From the IMG/VR virus record IMGVR_UViG_3300023435_000009: a stretch of DNA of 64,000 nt. One strand, 5' to 3'. Origin of the DNA: a virus. Lineage: Duplodnaviria > Caudoviricetes. The notes below the pieces were generated by a model, which did not search any database, was not told the DNA's origin, and saw only the letters and a program-made list of their open reading frames with translations. The position numbers and the translations under genes are program-made. This document shows, in pieces, positions 1,998 to 56,546 of the stretch (within the stretch, counting starts at the first letter, position 1; the number at the start of each line of letters is the position of its first letter).

Positions 1998-3413
1998 ATG
2001 GGGGGTTTTACAAACGTCTTGAAGGTCACCCGAATACTTTTTTCTAAAGACCTCAATGCAGGCAAGTTTGCCGTCTTAGAGGAACAAGCACGTCGATTAG
2101 GACAACTTCGTTCAGAAATATGGCAACGATTCGGATCCATAAATGGCGTTGGGAAATCGGATAGAGAAATCCGAGACGAATGGTTGCAACAGAAAAGAGA
2201 GTTTGATGTTCCAGCCAACGCCTGGAAAGAAACCCTGAGAGACGCTATCTCAGATGTCAGGGCATCCCGAGAAGCTGCAAAGGTCAAAGTACGAAAGACA
2301 ATACATTGTCACACAAAGGACACTGCCGAAAGAAAACATCGGTACACGCTTCTTAAGTCAGATAACTGGACAACTGACCCTTACCTGACTCGTGTCATGC
2401 GAAAGCATTGGAAGCGTGGACACAATCACACACATAATCAAATTATCGTTCGTGCCGACAAGTACAGGATCTTTGAGCTTGATAGTCGGGTTTGGCTCAA
2501 GATACCAGGGCTAACACCACGAAAAATGGTTACAATACCTTTGGACACAACCGTACACCCAACAGGTACTCTCCGACTGATCCTTCGGGACGATAGGGTC
2601 GAGATTCACTACCAAATTGAAGTCAAAAAGGAGAATCGTCACGGAGATACCGTACTAGGTGTGGACAAGGGGTACACAGAAGTCTTTGTAGACTCTGACG
2701 GAGAACACCATGGGAAAGAACTTGGGAAACTGTTATCCTCGGAGTCCGATTACTTAAAAACCAAGCATCAACGACGGAACAAGATCAAAGCAATTACTGA
2801 AAGGAAGCCACACAAAAGAGCGAACATCGAACGAAACAATCTTGGTCGAAAGAAATTGGATCGACGAGATCGGGTTGTGAAAGCCCATGTTCGGGACAAG
2901 GTTTTCAAGGCTGCTCATGCTGTCGTTGACAAGGCAGAGGTAGTTGTTGCTGAGGATCTGACTTTCCCCATTTCTTCGAGGAAATCTTACGGAAGGAATA
3001 TGAACAGGAGACTTTCTGCTTGGACCAAGGGTGTCATTGCGGAGAGTCTTGATTCCGTATCTCAGCGTAGAGGTTCTACGCTTGCACTCGTTAATTGTGC
3101 ATATACATCGCAAGTGGATTCTCGTTATGGTGTTCTTCGTGGACGTCGTAGAGGGGACTCATTTTACTGTTTTGATGGGGTTGTTTTGCACTCTGATGAG
3201 AATGCTGCACGAAACGTTTTGGCAAGACATTACGACTTTGAGATAGGTCGTTGGACTTCATACCGGGAGGTTCGGAGTATTTTGCTTGAACGGACTGAAT
3301 GCCATCGGTTGGGACTGCTCAACCAGGACACCAGTTGCAGACCTGAGGGTCTATCAACGGTGAGCGAATTACCTTTTGGACACATGTCCTACTTAAAAAG
3401 GAACAGACGCTAA
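1998..3413 (+). mobile_element. tnpB: TnpB RNA-guided nuclease #1 (IS607/IS200-605 accessory type), no transposase
   Basis: RuvC triad GVDKG / VAEDL / HSDENAA intact; AYTSQ motif; lower GC than flanks; probable start TTG 2019 (LKVTRIL, matches paralog at 37066). Confidence 0.88.
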
Positions 3414-3966: not shown

Positions 3967-6900
3967 GTCCGACGACGCCGTGGAGGTCAAAGCGATCCCA
4001 CCCCGAAAAGGTGTAAGGACCGGCAAACCGGGCAAGATCGTCACCTCTGCCATGCGGATGAAGACTGCCATGGGTCTCCCCACGGCAGGGACGATGATGG
4101 GTGTGGGGGGCAACTACTACTCCCCCGAGTTGTCTACCGATTTCCTAGAGTTGCCCCAGAGCAGAGACGAACAGCGCAACTTCTACCGTTTCTTCTATGA
4201 TTACGAGCCCTTCGTCGGCCAGGCCATCGACCAGCACACGGAACTGCCCCTGTCCAAGCTTCGGCTCCGTATGCCTGTGGCCAAGAACCGGGAACTGGCC
4301 GAGAAGTCCATGCGGTTCTGTGAGCGCTGGGCGAAGAAGATCAAGCTCCTCCAGAAGCTGATGCGGATCACCCATGAGTACCACCTGATGGGTGAGGCCA
4401 ACATCTTCTGTGAGGATACCAACGAGGAGATGCCGGACGAGGTTCGGGCGCAGTTGATCCGAGAGATCAAAGAGGACGGGACTCTGGTCGAGCGTTGGGA
4501 CGAGTATGAGGACGCTGATGAGCGGGCCGTTGCGTGGTTGAAGAAGAACTACAAGGGCTGGACGGCGGTTCGGGTGCTGCCCCCGGAACAGGTCAAGGTG
4601 GAGAGCTTCCCCTTCACGGATGAGAAGTTGGTCGAGCTTGTGCCGGACGCCAAGAGCAAGGCCATCGTGGAAAGAGCCCGTGGCGGTGACCCAAACGCCG
4701 AGCGCATCGTGAACTCGATGCCCACCGACATTGTGCAGGCAATCCTAGAGGGTCGGAACCCGGTCCTCAACACGGACAAGGACGCTGGCTCTTTCGTTTA
4801 TACCCTGGAGCGGAAAAGGTCGGACTACGAACCTCACGGTAAGTCCATTCTTCAGCGGTGTTTTCTGCCAGGCACCCCCATTTGGGTCAGTCGAGGTGGT
4901 GTGCCCCAAGAAGTACCCGTTGAGGACGTTCAGAACGGGGAGATGGTGTTGACCCATAATGGTCGGTTCCGATCATGTCAGGTGGGATCTCGCTCCGTGG
5001 ATGAAGAGATCACCGTGATTGACGTGGAGGGGATCCAAGATCCTTTGCGTCTGACATCTGAACACAGAGTGATGCGAATTGCCGAGGACGGTACCGAGGA
5101 GTGGGTTGAGGCCCGGCACATGCGAGTGGGTGACTTGGTGCGTGAAGCACACATCGCTCCTGAGAGTGACGACGTTCCAAGTGTTGTTGATCTGGTCGAA
5201 TGGTGGCAGGGTCGGCAGTTGTTGTCGACCAAGAGGGGACGACCAAAGCTGGGACTGTCAGAAACGGATCGTCAGTTGCAGGTGCTGTCCAGTACCGCAG
5301 ATTCAGAACTGACTGTTTGTTTTGAGTACCTGTCTGATAACAGAAATCATTTGCGAGCAACAGAAGGTTTGACTCGACTTCTGCAATGGGCACACAAGCT
5401 CACTGCACCCGTTGTCAAAACACAATCTGAGGTGGCCCTGGAAGCGGGGGTTTCCGCACGGGATGTACGGGTCTATGCCCCCAGGTTGCGGAAAGAAGGT
5501 TTACTCAAAACGGAAGCTGTCTCATTAGGCCGAGGTAAACAGGTAACATGGTACCCATCTACGACGTCTGAATTACCGTCCGTTCAGACCACAATAACGT
5601 CTCCAGTTAGTTCAATTAACGTTACAGAGGAGTTTTGTTACCTCCTTGGGACATGGTTGGGGGACGGTTCCATCTGGACAGAAAAAGAGACCCTTTTGAA
5701 CGTGCATTCTCTCAAGTGGTCCCTCCATGATGAGGGAATGCGAGAAAGGATTCGGGGTCTGATCAAAGAGTGTTTTCCTGGTGTGGACATTATCACTGGT
5801 TCTCTGATGAGTAAAAAGGGACATCAGGGTGACGTTCGTGTGGAGGACCCCCTTCTAGCCCGTTGGTTCCTTGAGGAATTTGGGCACGGGTTCGATGGCA
5901 AACATCTGCCGGAATGGGTTTTCAATCTTCCTGTGTTGATGTTGCGGGCTCTCCTTCAAGGAGTGGTTGATACGGACGGATGGGTGAAGAAGGACGGAAC
6001 CACTTTAACTATAGACTTGAGGAACAAAGTCCTGGTACAGCAGCTCCATCTGTTGGCAAACCGAGTGGGGTTTCATACTCAGGTGCGGAAAACAATCCAG
6101 CGTCCGCACGTTTGGAAAAGAAAGTGGGAGAATCAACAGGGAGCACAGGAAAAGACGTACTCCTACGAGGAGCGGGAGTGTTGGAAGGTTGAATGTTGCC
6201 GCTCTGATGATATCCGGGCATGGACAGAGGGGGGGCTAAAAACCCCCACCTTGAGTGTTCCCCAACAGAAATACACCTGGTGTTCCCGTTTTAAGGGGGG
6301 GCATCTCACCCGTAAGGTCCGAGATGTTAGAATTCGCCCGTACCAGGGAGTTGTGTACTCCTTTGGTGTTGTTGGGGATGAGTCCCATATAACTGGGGGC
6401 ATCACTACTCACAACTGTATGAGAACTCTCGTCTTTAGAGACAAAGTTCGACAGTCGCTCACATCGATAGCTTCCCGACATATGACACCTTACCGTCTGG
6501 TTTATGCCGAGGACATGAACGAGGAGCAGACCGAGGCCCTCCGTGAGCAAGTCGACTTAGCTCTTCAAGACCCTGACTACTCAATCGTTACGAACTTCCA
6601 GGTCAACTGGGAGGAGATGGGTGCTGACCAGCGGCTCCCGGACTGGTCCTGGGTGTGGGACAACACGAATCAGCAGCTTTATGCTGGTCTCGGTGTGACC
6701 GAGGCTCTTTTGTCAGGTGAATCCAGCTACTCTGGGGACAGGATTTCCCTGGAGGTCATCAACAGCCGCTACATGTTCCTGAGGGAGGTGCTTCAGGACT
6801 TGGTGGAGGAGAACTTCTTCGAGCCAATGTGTCGCCGGATGGGTTTTGTGGAGGAGGATGAGGATGGGAACATGCAGGTAATCGTTCCTGGCCTGTCCTT

Positions 6901-37065: not shown

Positions 37066-38457
37066 TTGAGAGTCACCCGCATTCTTCAGGCAGATGTCCC
37101 ACCCACCTTGTTGCAGATATGTAAGGTTACAGGGTTTCTTCGTGCAGACATCTGGCGCAGATATGGCGCTCTGAAGAATGTAAGTAAAAGTGCGTTGGAC
37201 ATCCGTAAGGAAATCGTAGCAGGTGGTTTTTACGCCTCTCTCGACGTAGACGGAACCATACGTAATGAAACGACCAAAGACGTCGTGAACGACATCCTAC
37301 TCTATAAAGCAGCGGCAAAGGGAAAGGTTCGCAAAGCAATTGCGCTGCGAACTGACGACAAGACAGAACGTAAACGACTCTACACACTCTTGAAGTCCGA
37401 TAAATGGCTGGAGGATTCCTTTCTCCATCGTCAAATGCGTAAGCATTTCAAGCACGGTGTCTCACACACGAAAAATCAGTTTGTCGTGAGATCCGACCAA
37501 TTCAAAATAAAACACGTTGCTGGTTACCTAACTATCACTATTCGAATCGCTCGTAAATATGGTGACAATATAGTTCTGACGACAACTTCAAATGGTACAA
37601 ACGTAGACCTGAGTGGTTGTAACCTTCGTGTTATTGTGAAGGATGATGTAACTGAAATCCATTACAGTATGGACAAGGGTGAGGGACGTACGCACGGTAG
37701 CCAGACGTTGGGCGTTGATAAGGGCTATACCGAAGCATTCGTTGATTCGGATGGTGAACATCATGGTGAGCAGTTCGGTGCTGTGATGACTGAGTACAGC
37801 GATAAGGTCAGTAAGACTGGTTCAGCTAGGAACAAGTTACATGCTCTGGAGAAAAAACACCGTCAGGGTGGAAACCTCAAAAAAGCTGACAACATCAGGA
37901 CTCACAATCTTGGGCGTAAAAAGATTGATGCCCGCAGGCAACTAGCTCAAACACAACTACGAGGTATTGCCTTCAAGGCTACCCATACCATTGTGGATAA
38001 GGCAGCAGTAGTTGTATCAGAGGATCTAACCTCTCCGATCGCAAAAAAACGACCTTGGAAAAGGTTTAATAGAAGAATGAGTGGCTGGGCAAAGGGAGCA
38101 CTTGCTGAGGCCCTCGATTCGGTTTGTACGCAGCGTGAGGCCAGTCACGAACTGGTCAACTGTGCCTACACATCGCAGATGGACTCTGTAACAGGTTTGC
38201 TGCAAGGTAAACGTGTTGGGGACAAGTTTCACCGTATTAACGGGGATGTTATTCAGGCCGATCACAATGCTGCATTGAACGTGTTAGTCCGGTTGTCTGA
38301 CAAGGACATCGGGCGTTTCACCTCCTATCAAGAGGTGAGGCGCATCTTGTTGGCACGTTCTCCGGCGGAACTGACCGTCAAGAGGCACGAGTTGCAGTCG
38401 AAAGGCTATCAACCGTGTGCGGATAAACCCTCACGATCAGAAGTGATCAACTTCTAA
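37066..38457 (+). mobile_element. tnpB: TnpB RNA-guided nuclease #2 (paralog of #1)
   Basis: GVDKGYTEAFVDSDGEHHG, VSEDL, QADHNAA; TTG start with AAGGAG SD. Confidence 0.88.
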
Positions 38458-48012: not shown

Positions 48013-48041
48013 TTGACACAGTCTTTCCTTTTTTGTATAAT
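48013..48041 (+). promoter_or_regulatory. Perfect sigma70 consensus promoter
   Basis: TTGACA-17 nt-TATAAT, 6 nt before ATG 48048. Confidence 0.8.
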
Positions 48042-48047
48042 CCAATC

Positions 48048-49280
48048 ATGAAGGTGATTCGCTCCACCAAGTGTACTCTTAAGTTCTCCACAGCAGCTAA
48101 ATTGGCTACCCTGGAGATGGTCCTTGCAGAGTATGGGCAGGTTACCAACTTTTTCATCCAGTACTTATGGGTTCTCCCCAAGGTACCTTCCAAGAGCGCA
48201 CTGCTCAAACCCATCGTAGACCTTCCCAAAACGTGGCTCAGTGCCCGCTTACGTAAAGTAGCCGCTAGGGAAGCTATTTCGATGATTGTTGCCGCAAAGC
48301 GACGATGGAAGGACAAGGCCGTACAACCAACGCATAACGGTAAGTCGATGTACGTTTCATCGACGATTGCTGAGTTGCACGAAGCGCAGGACGCCACGGA
48401 ATTCGATTACTGGCTTAAGTTGTGGTCTATTGGTAGAGGGATTATCTTCCATCTCCCAATCCGACTCCACCAGCATTACCATAAGTTGGCTGCCCGAGGC
48501 AAGCGTCTCAACAGCTATGTTATTACCGCTGAGTCCGTTACCTTTGCTTTTGAAACAGACACTGGCCTTAAACGAACAGAAGGTCATCCACTTGGTGTTG
48601 ATACAGGAATTAAAGCGCTTGCGACCACGTCGGATGGTTTGCAGCTTGGTACCGATATCCAACCAATGATCGAGCGGATTAATCGTTGCAAGCATGGGTC
48701 GAAGGGACAGAAGACTGCCCGCAGGGCCTTGAAACAACGGATGGATGAGGTTGCCAGGGATCTTTTAGAAATTCCTGACATTAAGATAATAGTGGTTGAG
48801 AACCTTCGGGGTCTCAATCACAAGAGTCGTGTCAAACGTCGCTTGACCAAAAATATGCGGCGATCTCTTGGTTCGTGGGCTTATCGTTATTGGTTGGGTC
48901 GGGTTCAGGGTCGTTGCGAGGACAACCGTGTTGTCTTCAAAGCGGTGAACCCAGCGTATACTTCTCAACGATGTCCTGAATGTGGTTACACCGAGAGGGG
49001 GAATCGAAACGGAGAGGTGTTCAAGTGTCGGAAGTGTGGTCACACCGACAACGCAGATGTTAATGCTGCCAGGAACATTTTGACTCGATTTCGCTGGGGA
49101 CCTTACGGTGCCCCATTCAAACCTAGCGTCAAAGTCATGAAAGGGACGGTTGTCCCCGATAGTTTTGTGTTAGGAACGGTACAGTCCCCACATGGCAGGA
49201 TTCGTCTACATTGTTCAGGCCGAGGACACCTATCGTTTCAAGGTGGGTCAAACGGTGAATCTTCCTCAGCGGATGCGTAA
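48048..49280 (+). mobile_element. tnpB: TnpB RNA-guided nuclease #3 with zinc finger
   Basis: GVDTG / VVENL / NADVNAARN; CPECG...CRKCG; the ORF runs past the probable element end into the next gene. Confidence 0.9.
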
Positions 49281-52222: not shown

Positions 52223-52654
52223 ATGAAACGAAGAAGACGCAGGAAGTCATCGAAGCCGTTCCCCGCCAAGCTCTTCAGGGAAGCCTACTCTGAGCCGCCC
52301 TGTAAGTTTTGGCATGTCTATGTTATTCAGTCTCTGACGGTCCTGACGAAGAAGGGGGTCGGATACACCTACGTGGGAGCCACAAACAACCCACGTCGCC
52401 GTTTACGCCAGCACAACGGCGACCTTTCCGGTGGTGCCCGGAGTACGTTCAGGGGGCGACCCTGGATACCTCGTGCCTTGTTCGGACCTTATCAGGACAG
52501 AAGGGAGGCTATGCGGGCTGAGTACGCCTTGAAGCATGGGAAGCGTGGAGAGAACCGTTGTCGCTGGGCCTCGACTGATTCGAAATGGTGTAGGGGTGCT
52601 GGTCCGGACCATCCCTGGGTTGCAGATCCCACTGTTGCGGTAGAGCCTCTATAA
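52223..52654 (+). CDS. SLX1-like GIY-YIG nuclease
   Basis: HVYVIQS..YVGATNNPRRRLRQHNG..GGARST..RPW..EYALK. Confidence 0.8.
   Translation: MKRRRRRKSSKPFPAKLFREAYSEPPCKFWHVYVIQSLTVLTKKGVGYTYVGATNNPRRRLRQHNGDLSGGARSTFRGRPWIPRALFGPYQDRREAMRAEYALKHGKRGENRCRWASTDSKWCRGAGPDHPWVADPTVAVEPL
52639..52653 (+). promoter_or_regulatory. Candidate phage promoter (GGT-N8-TATA)
   Basis: GGTAGAGCCTCTATA upstream of the 52697 gene. Confidence 0.45.
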
Positions 52655-52696: not shown

Positions 52697-54340
52697 ATGA
52701 GTACCCGAATGGCCACGGAGTTCCCCTCAGAAGAGGCCCTGAAGAAGTACCTTAAGGAACATCCTAAGGCTGACCCGAAAAAGCACTCGGTGGCGGAATC
52801 TGGTGGGGAGTCCGAAAAGAAGGAACCGGAGGGGAAACAGCCCCAGAAGAGATACAGGTACCCTAGTGCCCTGATGAGTAAAGGTAACCTTTATTTCACT
52901 GACGCCGATGAGGTCGAGGCGTTTGCCAAGAAGACTAAATCCCTGTCGGGAGATAAGCAGACAGATGCCCAGGTCATGAAGAAGTTTTTGGCTGGGGCCT
53001 CACCAGGGACTAAAAAGAAAGTGGAGACTATGACTCCTGCTGAGTTCATGGGGCTTGTCAAAGCTCTTTTGGAGAATAAGGGGTTTAAGGATTCCCCCAT
53101 GTATAAGTCCCCGGCAGCGAAGCCTGATGCGAAGGAGCCAAAGAAAAAGGAGCCAAAGAAAAAGGAGCCAAAGAAAAAGGAGCAGACTGCCCCTAGTGGT
53201 TCACTGCCCTCTCCTGAGGCTTTGCGGATGAAGTCGTTCAAAGTTCCAGAGAAGCTTTCGCAGGCAGCCGTAGATAACCCTGTTGATATGCTGAAGTATC
53301 TGAGTAAGAAGGAAGGCAAAGACGATCTTCCCATTTGGGATGTTCCGAAGAAGTTTGCTGACGCTTTCCTTGCCGTTTTAGATGGGGCACCGGACGATGC
53401 TGCTAAGAAGAAAGCGGTCTTTAAGGTGGTGGAAAAGGCCACGCCACTTCAACTTGAATGGATCTGGTCCGAACTAGGATCTTGGAACTACGAGGGTCTG
53501 GCATCGGAACTAGCACATCGTTATGATGTGGGTCGTGATGGGGACTTGGAGCTTGCTGCTGTAGAGTACCTCCGAACATATAACGAAAAGATGCTTAAGA
53601 CTCTGGACCGGGGTTTTCACGCCGGAGACTGGGGGGCAGAAGCTAAAAAGAACCCTCGTTGGTGGAATGACTACGGTATCGAATGGGACATGGGAAAAAA
53701 GAAGAAGGCTATGGCCAACTCAGCAACAAGGATTGCTGCCCGTTACCTCGACATGGTGGCCTGCGATTGCGGTGACGAACTGTTCGCCGGGCGTGAGCAC
53801 GGTGAGGGGGGCAAGGGCTACGGTGAGTCTGGTCCCGATGTCCGAGGTCCCGGTAAGTGGCAACCCAAGCCGAAGGGTAAGTGCTACTACGAGACCGGCG
53901 ACGAGAAGGACCGCTGTTACGTTACGCAACATGGTGGCCCAGGCGGGCAGAAAAAGCCCGGCCCTGCTACGAAGCCTGGCGACTGGAAGACCTACGAGAA
54001 GCAGCGTTGGAAGGGGGCTGCTCTGTCACACCCCGAGGACGAAGAGGGGGCGCTGAAGGCGCTGAAGGTCTTCGCTAAGAAGGCTGAGTTGCCTTTCGCC
54101 ATCCAGGGTATAGAGAACCGGGAGTATCCGGTGAAGAGCCCCAAGGGGTTTGGGTCCCTGTTCGATAAGCTCTACATCAGCGTGGAGTGGTGGCAACCCT
54201 CATGGTGTAAGATTCAGTGGGGCTACACCCACCCCTCTGGTGGTTCCAACGGGTTGAACATTGGATCTGTCGGATGGGATGTTGATAAGGAGAAGTGGTA
54301 CTGGAAGTTGGATACCGGCAAGTACGGTTGGATCAACTAG
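52697..54340 (+). CDS. Multimodule hypothetical protein carrying RIAARYL
   Basis: GGAGG SD; Lys-rich linkers; modules separated by RMA/KKA/RIAARYL/GAA sites. Confidence 0.7.
   Translation: MSTRMATEFPSEEALKKYLKEHPKADPKKHSVAESGGESEKKEPEGKQPQKRYRYPSALMSKGNLYFTDADEVEAFAKKTKSLSGDKQTDAQVMKKFLAGASPGTKKKVETMTPAEFMGLVKALLENKGFKDSPMYKSPAAKPDAKEPKKKEPKKKEPKKKEQTAPSGSLPSPEALRMKSFKVPEKLSQAAVDNPVDMLKYLSKKEGKDDLPIWDVPKKFADAFLAVLDGAPDDAAKKKAVFKVVEKATPLQLEWIWSELGSWNYEGLASELAHRYDVGRDGDLELAAVEYLRTYNEKMLKTLDRGFHAGDWGAEAKKNPRWWNDYGIEWDMGKKKKAMANSATRIAARYLDMVACDCGDELFAGREHGEGGKGYGESGPDVRGPGKWQPKPKGKCYYETGDEKDRCYVTQHGGPGGQKKPGPATKPGDWKTYEKQRWKGAALSHPEDEEGALKALKVFAKKAELPFAIQGIENREYPVKSPKGFGSLFDKLYISVEWWQPSWCKIQWGYTHPSGGSNGLNIGSVGWDVDKEKWYWKLDTGKYGWIN
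53132..53183 (+). repeat. 15-nt tandem repeat x3.5 (KEPKK)
   Basis: AAGGAGCCAAAGAAA repeated. Confidence 0.9.
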
Positions 54341-54843
54341 GTTCTTTGTGCCTCCAGCACGTCCAGCACCATCCCTAACGCCTCCTCCACGATCTGCTGT
54401 TTGGCCTTTGTCCGAGACAGCTTGGCGTCTACGTACACGAAGCAGGTGATCGCTTTGTTCCCCAGTGCCGCCACACCTATGTAGGCGATTCCCACATCTG
54501 AGCGGGGGTTGGCGGGGTCTTCCCGTGACAGGGTGCCTGTGACACCCACCCCGATGTCAGCCATTTCCGCCCCCATTTCCGCCAAGTCGGCGGCGATTTC
54601 GGGGCTGTAGACACCGTGACTTTGAATGAGTCGGGCGACGTGTCCCTCACGACCCAGGCGGTGATCCAGACGTTCCTTGGCTGCGTTGCCGTAGACCACG
54701 GAACCCTCCCGGAAAACCTCGCTGGCTCCGGGGATATTCGTGATGGCAGATGCCAGCGCTCCGCCTGTACAGGACTCCACTGTGTAGATGTGGACCCCCA
54801 TTTTGTCGAGTTCGGCTACCAGTTTCTCCGCAATGTCAGTCAT
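54337..54843 (-). CDS. pncC: CinA C-terminal / PncC-type NMN deamidase
   Basis: VESCTGG..ASAITNIPGAS..F..G.V.Y.N.AK..GVGVTG: CinA family signature with catalytic Ser and Lys. Confidence 0.85.
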   Translation of the reverse strand: MTDIAEKLVAELDKMGVHIYTVESCTGGALASAITNIPGASEVFREGSVVYGNAAKERLDHRLGREGHVARLIQSHGVYSPEIAADLAEMGAEMADIGVGVTGTLSREDPANPRSDVGIAYIGVAALGNKAITCFVYVDAKLSRTKAKQQIVEEALGMVLDVLEAQRT

Positions 54844-55042
54844 GGTAATCTCCTTCCCTTACCAGGAGGCAGCGACCTGCATCATCAGGCCCGATCCGAG
54901 GATCGCTTCGCCCCAGAAAACAGGCCAGCCGTTGTTGGCCGCTTTTACCTTGATGCAGTTGTTGTCCCATTCCGGGTAGGACTTGGAACTCGCCATGAGC
55001 GCCTTGACACCTTCCACCGTGGTCAAATCGGACATTGGTCAC
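54836..55042 (-). CDS. Small hypothetical protein
   Basis: GGAGG SD; overlaps the pncC start. Confidence 0.55.
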   Translation of the reverse strand: MTNVRFDHGGRCQGAHGEFQVLPGMGQQLHQGKSGQQRLACFLGRSDPRIGPDDAGRCLLVREGDYHD

Positions 55043-55171
55043 CTCCTACAAGGGTCTACTCCAACAGCGCCGGAGATGATCCCGTTGGGTTCTCGTTGGG
55101 GTAGACGGGGGTATGCCTGACAGGGGATCATCCTACCGATCCGCTGAGTAGTTGTGGTGTAGGAGGACAAG

Positions 55172-55363
55172 ATGAGCGACGTCACTTTCAAGCCAGGGGA
55201 CAGCGTGATCGTTGCCCACCCTGTTTCCGCAATGGAGCGGGGTCTTTTGGGTGTGACCTTCACCGTGAAACGGCTGGCCCTGACACCATCCCTCAGAGTT
55301 GTCTGTAAGGACGACTGGGGCTCCTGGCACATCCATCCTGAGGCTTTGGAACATGTCTCGTAG
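55172..55363 (-). CDS. Small SH3/KOW-like hypothetical protein
   Basis: FKPGDSVIV pattern; ORF track. Confidence 0.45.
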
Positions 55364-55401
55364 GGTTGCTAACAGTAGGTCAAAACAGCCTTTTAATGAG
55401 G

Positions 55402-55860
55402 ACACCAGTCGGGAAGGGACTCAAAAGTCCTTGACTTGGTCATCCCTCATTCCTATCGTATTTAGCGTAAAGGTGATAGCCAAGCTCTTCAAACTGTTCT
55501 TTGGGATTTTGGATTTGGTGGTTGGTGAGGAAAGACCTCACCGTAAAATCCAAATCGTTGAAGAACTTAGCAGTCTTAACGATTGTGAATGACCGGGAGT
55601 TCCTCGGTTACAGCCTGCTGTCCTGGAAGCTCTGGCTTGATTCATTTGAATCAAGTGAAACTACTGGTTGGGCAGGAACCTAACTTCAATCAAGGCTTGT
55701 CCTCGATTGAGTCAGTTTAGGAGAACGGACTCTAAGCGACTGACCATCATCCGTGCAGCTTTACAAAGCGGGCGGTAACTCCCGCCGGGTCGGGTCTGCT
55801 ATATCACCATCAGACATAACGCCATAGTCTGACACACCGTGTGACATCCTGTCTGATCCG
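55402..55860 (+). ncRNA. Candidate large structured non-coding RNA
   Basis: About 460 nt lacking a credible ORF, with at least seven stem-loops, including a GUAA-capped one. Confidence 0.55.
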
Positions 55861-55903
55861 TTTTGCCGCCTATACGATCACCCTGATGACACTGGAGTCG
55901 CTA

Positions 55904-56125
55904 ATGGATAAGACCACAGGTACCACCCGGATTTACGAGTACATCGCAGATGACGGAACCATCTACTGGTCCTTGAAAAAGAGCGCCCAGATAGTATCAC
56001 CCCCGACCCGCCTTCTCCTCCAGGAGAAGAAGGGGACGATAGTGGGGCAGTTTATTGCCCAACTTCGGATACGTGCCTTGGCGCTACAAAAGCCCAATGG
56101 GAGTGGCAGTACAACGGTACAGTAG
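55904..56125 (+). CDS. Small hypothetical protein
   Basis: GGAG SD, ATG 55904. Confidence 0.55.
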   Translation: MDKTTGTTRIYEYIADDGTIYWSLKKSAQIVSPPTRLLLQEKKGTIVGQFIAQLRIRALALQKPNGSGSTTVQ

Positions 56126-56153
56126 CGGAAGGTTTTAACCGGAGGAGCAAGGA

Positions 56154-56546
56154 ATGAAAGACAACGACTTGAAAGTGGTGGATGACAAGGGGACCGAAGA
56201 GGTCACCCCCGAGATTGCAATGGTGGAGACCCTGGAGGATCCTCCTGAGGTGGCCGGGGAGGCCCCGCAGGATCCTGACATCGCTGGTGTGTTGACCCCC
56301 GAGGAGCAGAGTCAGTTGCAGATGCTCCGCCAGAAGGGTGGTCAGCTTACGATGGAGATCGGCCAACTGGAGCTTCGGAAGGCCCGTGTCCTGGGGACCA
56401 TCTCGGACGTCGAGGCCCAGGGGCAGAATCTGCTGAAAGTCGCTGCGAAGCGGATGGGGATCCCTGATGGGCAGCCCTGGCAGGTGCTCCCGGACGGCAG
56501 GGCACGGCTCGTGACGCAAACGCCAGAGGGGATGCCCCAGGGCTAA
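56154..56546 (+). CDS. Small coiled-coil hypothetical protein
   Basis: GGAGGAG SD; acidic N-terminus, coiled coil. Confidence 0.65.
   Translation: MKDNDLKVVDDKGTEEVTPEIAMVETLEDPPEVAGEAPQDPDIAGVLTPEEQSQLQMLRQKGGQLTMEIGQLELRKARVLGTISDVEAQGQNLLKVAAKRMGIPDGQPWQVLPDGRARLVTQTPEGMPQG

What the first reader, a model, noticed from the sequence alone, without database searches (positions are those of the whole stretch)
55402..55860. ~460-nt highly structured intergenic RNA candidate with group-I-intron-like core elements
Seen stems: GGTGAGG/CCTCACC (55524-55542) inside a ~70-nt rod; CTTGATTC/GAATCAAG (55636-55655); TCAATC/GATTGA; GTCAGT/ACTGAC; GCGGG/CCCGC with a GUAA loop; ATCAGACA/TGTCTGAT. An alternative fold gives group-I-like order: P3 GATTGTG 55581 / CACCATC 55805, AAT, P4 GACCGG/CTGGTT, P6 GGG/CTC, UAA, P7 G-C-GACTG 55736 / TAGTC-T 55825. 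However, only 13 nt separate P3' from P7' (no room for P8), J4/5 lacks the A-rich motif, and no interrupted gene is evident. It could be a free-standing or degenerate ribozyme, or a new large phage ncRNA class.
Basis: partly seen in the sequence, partly recalled or inferred. Interest (0 to 1): 0.7.

Follow-up and report, generated by a model that had tools for sequence, protein, structure and literature searches.

The report
Protein-less TnpB guide-RNA mini-element
The "structured RNA" is a 363-base, protein-less leftover of an IS607-type transposon that still carries a complete guide RNA (omegaRNA) for the RNA-guided nuclease TnpB; it is a real, conserved RNA of an already known kind, not a group I-like ribozyme or a new RNA class.

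Summary
Only window 55366-55728 is a unit, though, and it is not intron-like. Window 55590-55728 (+) is 72-85% identical to the last ~140 nt of IS607-type tnpB genes and their right ends, in huge-phage and metagenome contigs. It folds into a seven-helix structure: 36 pairs, 24 with compensatory changes, 94% of cells paired against 76% in shuffles.

Every homolog ends ...GGAGAACGG. After that, even identical copies diverge. This marks the transposon right end, and the next ~20 nt (55729-55748) are the guide.

No tnpB lies beside it. A second copy of the whole 55357-55728 stretch (85% identical) sits in an unrelated gene context in two IMG/VR phage contigs. Salt-lake contigs stop matching at the same two borders. 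The left border abuts TAGGG/GAGGG, a published IS607 TnpB TAM.

The element also carries a conserved promoter-like site and a leader hairpin. Rfam gives no group I hit.

Verdict: a standalone-omegaRNA mini-element, a new member of a known kind. This scan already noted the same kind elsewhere in this genome (e1-5401919). Whether it still guides a TnpB in trans is untested.

The parts
55361..55365 (+). Left flank motif TAGGG, the candidate TAM. It includes the TAG stop of ORF 55172-55363 and the GG at the left junction.
   Evidence: The copies read TAGGG|TTGC (window), GAGGG|TTGC (L078/L075) and ..GGGGG|TTGC (a lake contig). Ren et al. (PMC11061315) report the TAM 5'-GAGGG for some IS607 TnpBs.
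55366..55728 (+). Protein-less IS607-type mini-element of 363 nt. The left border is uncertain within 55357-55366.
   Evidence: Window 55357-55728 is 84.7% identical to L078:10306-10680 and L075:9503-9877, and the flanks are unrelated. Salt-lake contigs begin to match at 55357/55363 and stop at exactly 55728.
55431..55459 (+). Promoter-like site TTGACT-17-TATCGT inside the element
   Evidence: It is the only sigma-70-like site in 55000-56200, but 0.7 are expected by chance. In the L078 copy the -35 box is identical and the -10 box reads TACTGT. Function is inferred.
55496..55566 (+).
   Evidence: It appears in the MFE and centroid folds. The L078 copy keeps it with one compensatory A-U>G-C change, two one-sided changes and no broken pair. 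Its role is unknown.
55590..55728 (+). omegaRNA/reRNA scaffold, 139 nt, ending ...GGAGAACGG
   Evidence: blastn gives E as low as 5e-27 to the 3' ends of tnpB genes. tblastn shows the TnpB C-terminal tail SACCPGSSG..KLLVGQxPN. The consensus structure has 36 pairs, 24 of them compensatory. The window agrees with 53 of 55 columns that are invariant among 10 omegaRNAs linked to full-length TnpB.
55729..55748 (+). Predicted guide ACTCTAAGCGACTGACCATC, the flank just 3' of the right end
   Evidence: Homologs with identical scaffolds diverge immediately after AACGG. The ~20-nt length is by analogy with the 20-nt guides and targets used for IS607 TnpBs (PMC11061315). No second match was found in the window or in IMG/VR.
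55749..55903 (.). Ordinary intergenic flank, not part of the element.
   Evidence: It has no homolog, folds like shuffles (z +0.42), and lies outside both borders of the repeated unit.

Best explanation
Window 55366-55728 is a non-autonomous, protein-less derivative of an IS607-family TnpB element. It keeps the left end, a promoter-like site, a leader hairpin and the complete 139-nt omegaRNA/reRNA scaffold at the right end. It has lost tnpB (and tnpA, if it ever had one).

Shown here: homology of 55590-55728 to the tnpB 3' end and right end of full elements; a covariation-supported fold; a sharp right border after ...AACGG; a sharp left border next to TAGGG/GAGGG; and copies in at least two unrelated gene contexts.

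Inferred: the RNA is transcribed from the internal promoter, or by read-through from the 63-aa ORF upstream. A TnpB encoded elsewhere trims it at the 5' side, as TnpB does with its own mRNA (PMC10278001). That protein then uses the 3' ~20 nt (ACTCTAAGCGACTGACCATC) as a guide to cut element-free alleles reading TAGGG+guide. Repair by recombination during co-infection would then copy the element in (homing and retention, as shown for IS605/IS607 TnpB in PMC10055086 and doi 10.1101/2023.11.20.567912). A serine TnpA supplied in trans would do any transposition, at GG.

My odds: about 0.9 that this is the element's identity, and about 0.4 that it still works as a trans guide rather than being a well-preserved relic.
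For: - Homology: the only significant GenBank phage hit is the 3' end of a TnpB ORF.
- More instances: 4 IMG/VR and 34 metagenome loci share the bipartite core motif, and another pattern found 7 further IMG/VR loci, of which five matched the R1 model and one more holds only the 3' half.
- Extent of homology: blastn matches cover only query 227-366, which is window 55590-55729.
- Gene linkage: 9 loci have a full-length TnpB directly upstream, and a serine-recombinase TnpA precedes tnpB in L004 by Pfam Resolvase.
- Decay series: the upstream TnpB remnant starts at aa 157, 231, 335 or 358, or only the scaffold remains (window, L042, L045).
- Structure: RNAalifold finds 36 pairs, 24 with compensatory changes. 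Cells paired are 94.3% against 76.2% in shuffles (0 of 500 shuffles reach it) and 25-48% when partners are slid. The G-U pairs fit the + strand only.
- Right end: identical scaffolds are followed by unrelated sequence right after AACGG, and lake contigs leave the window at 55728.
- Whole-element copy: 84.7% identity over 378 aligned columns (372 window nt) in L078/L075, with unrelated neighbours.
- Integrity: the window agrees with 53 of 55 columns invariant in omegaRNAs linked to full-length TnpB. The CM score is 134 bits against 125-147 for linked copies, but the window was in the training set.
- Literature: IS607 scaffolds end NCGG and the TAM ends in the GG core. The TAM 5'-GAGGG and RAGATH-18-derived reRNAs are described. 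Protein-less PATE-like elements that carry omegaRNAs needing TnpB in trans are described.
Against: - No cognate TnpB is present in the 64-kb window. Its three TnpB-like genes are only 24-28% identical to the TnpBs that carry this scaffold, and the model finds no second copy in the window.
- In the related 188-kb phage fragment G003, the only TnpB linked to this RNA family is a 226-aa truncated gene.
- The window's scaffold does not match Rfam RAGATH-18 at all.
- The promoter match is weak evidence, since 0.7 are expected by chance.
- The first hairpin of the left part (55395-55450) is not kept in the other copy.
- No element-free allele of this site was found in the four runs laid.
Confidence: 0.85

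Rival explanations
1. It is an inert fossil: the last surviving piece of a decayed TnpB element, with no present function. It looks intact only because it is young or because small pieces decay slowly.
For: There is a graded series of 5'-truncated tnpB remnants upstream of the same RNA. No cognate TnpB is in the window. G003's linked TnpB is truncated. L081 shows internal deletions happening.
Against: Two copies that differ at about 15% of positions still keep the scaffold helices, the leader hairpin and the -35 box. The window agrees with 53 of 55 columns invariant in working-context omegaRNAs. Both strands of the central helix were exchanged together, so pairing is kept. The unit has sharp borders at both ends in different gene contexts, which fits a mobilised element rather than random decay.
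Confidence: 0.45
2. It is a free-standing or degenerate group I-like ribozyme, or a new large (~460 nt) phage ncRNA.
For: The region has many hairpins and folds better than shuffles overall. IS607 elements can be fused to group I introns (IStrons), so the idea is not absurd in this context.
Against: No group I or other large-RNA family matches, even at E<=10. The proposed P3'/P7' lie in non-conserved flank that folds like shuffled sequence. The conserved unit ends at 55728 in every copy. No host gene is split. The conserved core is explained base by base as a TnpB guide scaffold.
Confidence: 0.02
3. The RNA has been co-opted for something other than homing, for example as a guide for a nuclease-dead TnpB-like repressor (TldR-type), or as a decoy that soaks up the TnpB of competing elements.
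For: It has its own promoter-like site. It sits just upstream of a block of + strand genes. TnpB-derived RNA-guided repressors exist (listed: PMC10705468).
Against: The guide has no second match in the window or in IMG/VR. It is simply the DNA next to the right end, as in any unmodified insertion. No TldR-like gene was identified nearby.
Confidence: 0.05

Closest known systems
IS607-family TnpB guide RNAs (omegaRNA / RAGATH-18-derived reRNA, e.g. ISFba1; Ren et al. 2024, PMC11061315)
   Same: The scaffold overlaps the 3' end of tnpB in full elements and ends at the right end, with the guide taken from the flank. It has a central multi-helix domain bracketed by CCUG...GCAGGAA. The left flank carries a GAGGG-like TAM. 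Close relatives of this element (L084, L086) hit Rfam RAGATH-18 at 30-31 bits.
   Different: There is no adjacent tnpB. The scaffold is 139 nt against 187 nt in ISFba1. The window's central domain has different loop and helix sequences (CUGUCCUGG/CUGGUUGGG instead of UGGAG.../...GAUGAAG) and gives no RF03064 hit. The exact core pattern was found only in phage and metagenome contigs, not in one genome each of 185,579 prokaryote species.
PATE-like protein-less IS200/IS605 elements that carry omegaRNAs (Meers et al. 2023, PMC10055086) and standalone omegaRNAs of OMEGA systems
   Same: It has both transposon ends and a guide RNA but no protein gene, so it needs TnpB and TnpA in trans. Copies lie at several sites.
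   Different: The ancestry is IS607-type (serine recombinase, GG core) rather than Y1-transposase IS200/IS605 with subterminal DNA hairpins. The host is a huge phage rather than a bacterial chromosome.
IS607-type IStrons (CboIStron; Zedaveinyte et al., doi 10.1101/2023.11.20.567912)
   Same: The right-end logic is the same: the scaffold ends in NCGG, the TAM ends in GGG with a shared GG core, and the -3 position separates self from target. This is the one known setting where a TnpB guide RNA and a group I intron share an element.
   Different: No group I core is detectable here, and no exon is interrupted.
Guide-RNA-only mini transposon noted earlier in this same genome (scan note e1-5401919)
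   Same: By that note's description: 350-360 nt, protein-less, IS607-type, with both ends, a promoter and a full scaffold, at several sites in this salt-lake megaphage lineage.
   Different: I could not compare the sequences. The scan's word index did not link the two stretches, so they may be different sub-families.

Membership tests
Group I intron | Conserved catalytic core (P3-P9 with the P7 guanosine pocket) detectable by the Rfam group I model | tested here: not met
   There was no hit at gathering scores on the whole window. There was none at E<=10 on 55250-56000 or on 55580-55740.
Group I intron | Interrupts a host gene, with splice sites that restore the reading frame | tested here: not met
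   The upstream ORF ends at TAG 55361-55363, before the element. The relatives L002 and L003 carry unrelated genes at this position.
Group I intron | Core pairings conserved in homologs | tested here: not met
   The proposed P3' (55805) and P7' (55825) lie beyond the end of all homology at 55728. That stretch folds like shuffles.
TnpB omegaRNA / reRNA (IS607 type) | The sequence is homologous to the 3' end of tnpB plus the right end of full elements | tested here: met
   Nine loci have a full-length TnpB directly upstream. A serine TnpA precedes tnpB in L004 (Pfam Resolvase); in L080 the DNA just upstream of tnpB looks coding and TnpA-like, but I did not test it.
TnpB omegaRNA / reRNA (IS607 type) | Conserved secondary structure supported by covariation | tested here: met
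   There are 36 pairs in 7 helices, 24 with changes on both sides. Cells paired are 94.3%. No shuffle of 500 reached any of the five measures. Slid controls gave 25-48%.
TnpB omegaRNA / reRNA (IS607 type) | The scaffold ends at the transposon right end and is followed by a copy-specific guide | tested here: met
   Every scaffold that reaches its 3' end finishes ...ACGG or ...ACAG (usually GGAGAACGG), apart from L060, whose 3' end is rearranged. After that, even identical scaffolds diverge. Lake contigs diverge at 55728.
TnpB omegaRNA / reRNA (IS607 type) | Match to the Rfam RAGATH-18 model (RF03064) at its gathering score | tested here: not met
   The window copy gives no hit at E<=10. The sister copies L084 and L086 reach 30.2 and 31.5 bits against a cut-off of 44.9. 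This is therefore a divergent relative, not a member by Rfam's rule.
TnpB omegaRNA / reRNA (IS607 type) | A TAM next to the left end that matches the family's TAM and the GG core | tested here: inconclusive
   The flank reads TAGGG (window), GAGGG (L078) and GGGGG (a lake contig), which is consistent with the published 5'-GAGGG. Only three junctions were seen, and the left border is uncertain by 9 nt.
TnpB omegaRNA / reRNA (IS607 type) | The RNA is expressed, bound by TnpB and directs DNA cleavage | not testable with these tools
   Testing this needs RNA-seq, RIP and cleavage assays, which these tools do not offer.
Standalone-omegaRNA / PATE-like non-autonomous element | No protein gene between the two ends | tested here: met
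   Only chance ORFs of 60 aa or fewer lie wholly inside 55366-55728. No TnpB remnant lies upstream of 55589.
Standalone-omegaRNA / PATE-like non-autonomous element | The same unit, with the same two borders, at different genomic sites | tested here: met
   The window and L078/L075 share the unit but have unrelated flanks and neighbouring genes. Lake contigs show a further left flank.
Standalone-omegaRNA / PATE-like non-autonomous element | A cognate TnpB (and TnpA) available in trans in the same genome | tested here: inconclusive
   There is none in the 64-kb window. The rest of the genome is not held. Scan note e1-5401844 reports a TnpB element 40 kb upstream that shares words with L076; I did not test this.

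The most novel reading that the evidence does not exclude
The mini-element may be a working guide-only hyperparasite. It would borrow TnpB from another element of the megaphage to home into element-free relatives during co-infection. The ~55-nt patch 55617-55672, where both strands of the central helix were exchanged together relative to the sister copy (RAGATH-18-like core replaced by the CUGUCCUGG/CUGGUUGGG core), would have re-tuned it to a different TnpB partner. That would be natural partner-switching of a guide scaffold.
Probability: 0.25. Interest if true: 0.55.

Novelty: new member of a known kind. Interest (0 to 1): 0.3.

Why it matters
It explains a conspicuous "structured RNA" in a 528-kb salt-lake phage as a known type of selfish element, which removes a false lead for a new ribozyme. 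It adds a covariation-supported model for a divergent IS607 guide-RNA scaffold that Rfam's RAGATH-18 model misses. The model rests on 28 distinct sequences, mostly from phage and metagenome contigs. It also documents, in one family, the full decay series from TnpA+TnpB element to guide-only mini-element. If the RNA still works in trans, huge phages would be a natural setting to study how guide RNAs spread and switch nuclease partners independently of their nuclease.

Tried and rejected
- Rfam at gathering scores on the whole window found nothing. At E<=10 on the region it returned only chance miRNA/SraB matches, and nothing on the scaffold alone.
- ARAGORN found no tRNA or tmRNA in the window.
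- The relatives of the window, L002 and L003, carry unrelated genes between CinA and the small ORF, so synteny could not define an empty site.
- The 19-mer core gave 27 hits in prokaryote genomes, but none extends beyond the seed, so they are chance. The stricter bipartite pattern gave none.
- Self-similarity of the region within the window: none. The covariance model R1 on the window found only the copy itself.
- No TnpB remnant lies upstream of 55589.
- The leader-hairpin tip pattern found nothing in IMG/VR. The left-end pattern found only the two known copies.
- The 20-nt guide has no match in IMG/VR and no second match in the window at up to 3 mismatches.
- Sequencing runs: no RNA holder is listed, so nothing can be said about expression.
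- The contigs laid show no joint that skips the element, so no empty-site allele was seen in those four runs.
- I looked for similarity between the mini-element's left part and the DNA upstream of the truncated TnpB in G003 and found none.
- The better fold z-score of the minus strand was considered. I set it aside because homology to tnpB and the G-U pairs fix the RNA on the + strand.

Full report
**Setting**

The window looks like part of a very large phage. It has long + strand operons, a 3032-aa ORF and mostly unannotated proteins. Notes from this scan call it a 528-kb salt-lake megaphage rich in TnpB/IscB elements. I confirmed three TnpB-like genes in the window by Pfam: 1998-3413, 37066-38457 and 48033-49280.

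The finding lies in a 540-nt gap. Upstream is a 63-aa ORF (55172-55363, +). Downstream is a small ORF that starts at ATG 55904; its frame is listed as 55841-56125 from an upstream GTG. A CinA/PncC gene (54337-54843, -) lies further upstream.

**The observation**

The gap as a whole folds better than dinucleotide shuffles (z -2.7 on +, -5.0 on -). When it is split, the signal sits in two parts:
- 55366-55589: z -2.7.
- 55590-55748: z -2.6.

Rfam 15 gives nothing at gathering scores. In permissive searches it gives no group I, GOLLD, ROOL, OLE or RNase P match. No tRNA or tmRNA is present.

**What the core is**

The only significant GenBank phage hit, to a 485-kb uncultured phage, covers window 55590-55688. 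It falls in the last 100 nt of an ORF that Pfam identifies as TnpB (OrfB_IS605 + Cas12f1-like_TNB).

Pattern scans built on the invariant core (CCTGGAAGCTC...GAAACnnCnGGnTGGGC) found 4 IMG/VR loci and 34 metagenome loci. They found none in one genome each of 185,579 prokaryote species. A second pattern, from the 3' end of the scaffold, added 7 IMG/VR loci; five of these matched the R1 model and a sixth holds only the 3' half.

In every case blastn similarity to the window is confined to 55590-55729. In 9 loci a full-length TnpB ORF runs into this stretch. In L004 a serine-recombinase TnpA precedes tnpB, which is the IS607 arrangement. The DNA just upstream of tnpB in L080 also looks coding and TnpA-like, but I did not test it.

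The shared C-terminal peptide (..SACCPGSSG..KLLVGQxPN) is kept between TnpBs that are only about 60% identical. The window still "encodes" it without any TnpB upstream. This is the known signature of a guide-RNA scaffold overlapping the end of tnpB.

**Structure**

- A 21-sequence MAFFT alignment (A3) gave 27 consensus pairs, 13 with compensatory changes.
- A covariance model (R1) re-aligned 35 instances, 28 of them distinct (A5). RNAalifold then gave 36 pairs in 7 helices, 24 with changes on both sides.
- Counting on that structure, 94.3% of cells form standard pairs against 76.2% in column shuffles. No shuffle of 500 reached any of the five measures. With partners slid by 1-3 columns, 25-48% of cells pair.
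- A5 was fitted to the model, which favours the structure. However, the same helices appear in the MAFFT alignment and in the single-sequence MFE fold of the window copy.
- Conserved G-U pairs fix the RNA on the + strand.
- The window copy agrees with 53 of 55 columns that are invariant among ten omegaRNAs attached to full-length TnpB. One of the two exceptions is a G-U to A-U change.

**Borders**

Every scaffold that reaches its 3' end finishes ...ACGG or ...ACAG (usually GGAGAACGG), apart from L060, whose 3' end is rearranged. Copies with identical scaffolds continue with unrelated sequence from the next base. This places the transposon right end at 55728|55729 and makes 55729-55748 the guide.

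Laying contigs of four lake or marine runs on the window showed other copies that start to match at 55357/55363. Some start at 55464, after a diverged 70-nt segment. All leave the window at exactly 55728.

Two IMG/VR contigs (L078 in a 188-kb fragment, and L075) hold a complete second copy. Window 55357-55728 aligns to it at 84.7% identity, with unrelated flanks and unrelated neighbouring genes.

The left junctions read CTCGTAGGG|TTGC (window), CTCGGAGGG|TTGC (L078) and ...AGAGGGGG|TTGC (a lake contig). By analogy with characterised IS607 systems, I place the left end at 55366 and read TAGGG as the TAM. The analogy rests on three published points:
- the TAM ends in the GG core;
- the scaffold ends NCGG;
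- the TAM is 5'-GAGGG in some RAGATH-18-type TnpBs.

The shared CTCG leaves a 9-nt uncertainty, so the border lies within 55357-55366. The insertion sits right after the stop codon of the 63-aa ORF and splits no gene.

**The rest of the element**

The left 224 nt have no homolog outside the L078/L075 copy and the lake contigs.

They contain the only sigma-70-like site of the region, TTGACT-17-TATCGT at 55431-55459. On its own this is weak, since 0.7 are expected by chance. In the sister copy the -35 box is identical and the -10 box keeps T1, A2 and T6.

The first hairpin (55395-55450) is not kept.

Read-through transcription is therefore also possible.

**Relation to known RNA families**

The sister copies (L084, which is the L078 site, and L086) hit Rfam RAGATH-18 (RF03064) at 30-31 bits, below the 44.9 cut-off. 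The hit lies across the central domain: CCUGUGGAG...UGAAGCAGGAA. RAGATH-18-derived reRNAs are the published guides of IS607 TnpBs (PMC11061315).

The window copy keeps the bracket CCUG...GCAGGAA. Inside it, both strands of the inner helix and the adjoining loops differ (CUGUCCUGG / CUGGUUGGG), and RF03064 does not detect it. That window-type core is the one found in the peat, groundwater and other phage contigs.

The two lake copies are very similar on both sides of this ~55-nt tract and differ coordinately within it. This looks like a conversion patch that preserved pairing.

**Is it alive?**

Evidence for decay:
- The family shows a graded series of TnpB remnants upstream of the RNA, starting at aa 157, 231, 335 or 358, and three scaffold-only cases (window, L042, L045).
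- L081 is an internal-deletion derivative.
- The only family-linked TnpB in the 188-kb relative G003 is a truncated 226-aa gene.
- The window's own three TnpBs are only 24-28% identical to the cognate type.

Evidence for function:
- The scaffold is intact.
- Structure, leader hairpin and -35 box survive about 15% divergence between copies.
- The core exchange preserved pairing.
- Sharp two-sided borders at different sites indicate mobilisation as a unit.

Protein-less elements that carry omegaRNAs and need TnpB in trans are already described (PMC10055086). Another note reports a TnpB element 40 kb upstream that shares words with L076; I could not test that. The guide matches nothing else in the window or in IMG/VR, as expected for an unmodified insertion.

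**Verdict**

The structured RNA is real, but it is a 139-nt IS607-type TnpB guide scaffold inside a 363-nt protein-less mini-element (55366-55728). The group I reading is not supported. It is a new member, with a divergent core, of a known kind. Its present activity as a trans guide is open; I put it at about 0.4.

Noticed in passing
window 1998-3413, 37066-38457, 48033-49280: There are three TnpB-like genes (Pfam Cas12f1-like_TNB), each at a local GC dip. The first two are 45% identical to each other. All three are only 24-28% identical to the TnpBs that go with the mini-element's RNA. The third element's right end, ...TTAGGAACGG (49170-49179), resembles the ...TTAGGAGAACGG end of the mini-element.
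   Followed up: partly
window 55617-55672 vs L078:10566-10624: Both strands of the central omegaRNA helix are exchanged coordinately between two otherwise ~90% identical mini-element copies. The window has a core that Rfam does not detect, and L078 has a RAGATH-18-like core. This looks like a conversion patch and could mean a switch of TnpB partner.
   Followed up: partly
L053:4625-5234 and L064; L042:3801-3929 and 4676-4813: These are tandem guide RNAs. In L053/L064 a full TnpB-omegaRNA is followed 424-468 nt later by a second omegaRNA with only a TnpB tail. In L042 two TnpB-less omegaRNAs lie 875 nt apart.
   Followed up: partly
L081:629-808: This is an internal-deletion derivative. The first ~33 codons of a TnpB are joined directly to the 3' half of the omegaRNA, a possible snapshot of how mini-elements arise.
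   Followed up: no
G003 (IMG/VR 188-kb fragment holding L078 and L086): There are nine TnpB-like (PF07282) matches in 188 kb of a phage estimated to be 36% complete. The one linked to this RNA family (L086:957-1637) is a 226-aa 5'-truncated gene.
   Followed up: partly
right flanks: window 55729-55738; L078:10681-10690; L086:1646-1655; lake contigs: The first ~10 nt after the right end look alike in several salt-lake copies at different sites (ACTCTAAGCG, TACATCAGGT/TACATAAACG, TCCGTAAACG, CACGGAAACG). This may be a target preference 3' of the GG core. Peat and groundwater copies show no such similarity.
   Followed up: no
window 55126-55151: GATCATCCTACCGATCCGCTGAGTAG lies just upstream of the 63-aa ORF.
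   Followed up: no
window 52223-52654 and 54337-54843: A GIY-YIG nuclease-domain ORF and a stand-alone CinA/PncC-like gene lie in the accessory block just upstream. This is another sign that it is a variable, mobile-element-rich spot. The relatives L002 and L003 carry different genes here, including a ThyX-like ORF in L003 (named from its sequence only, not tested).
   Followed up: no
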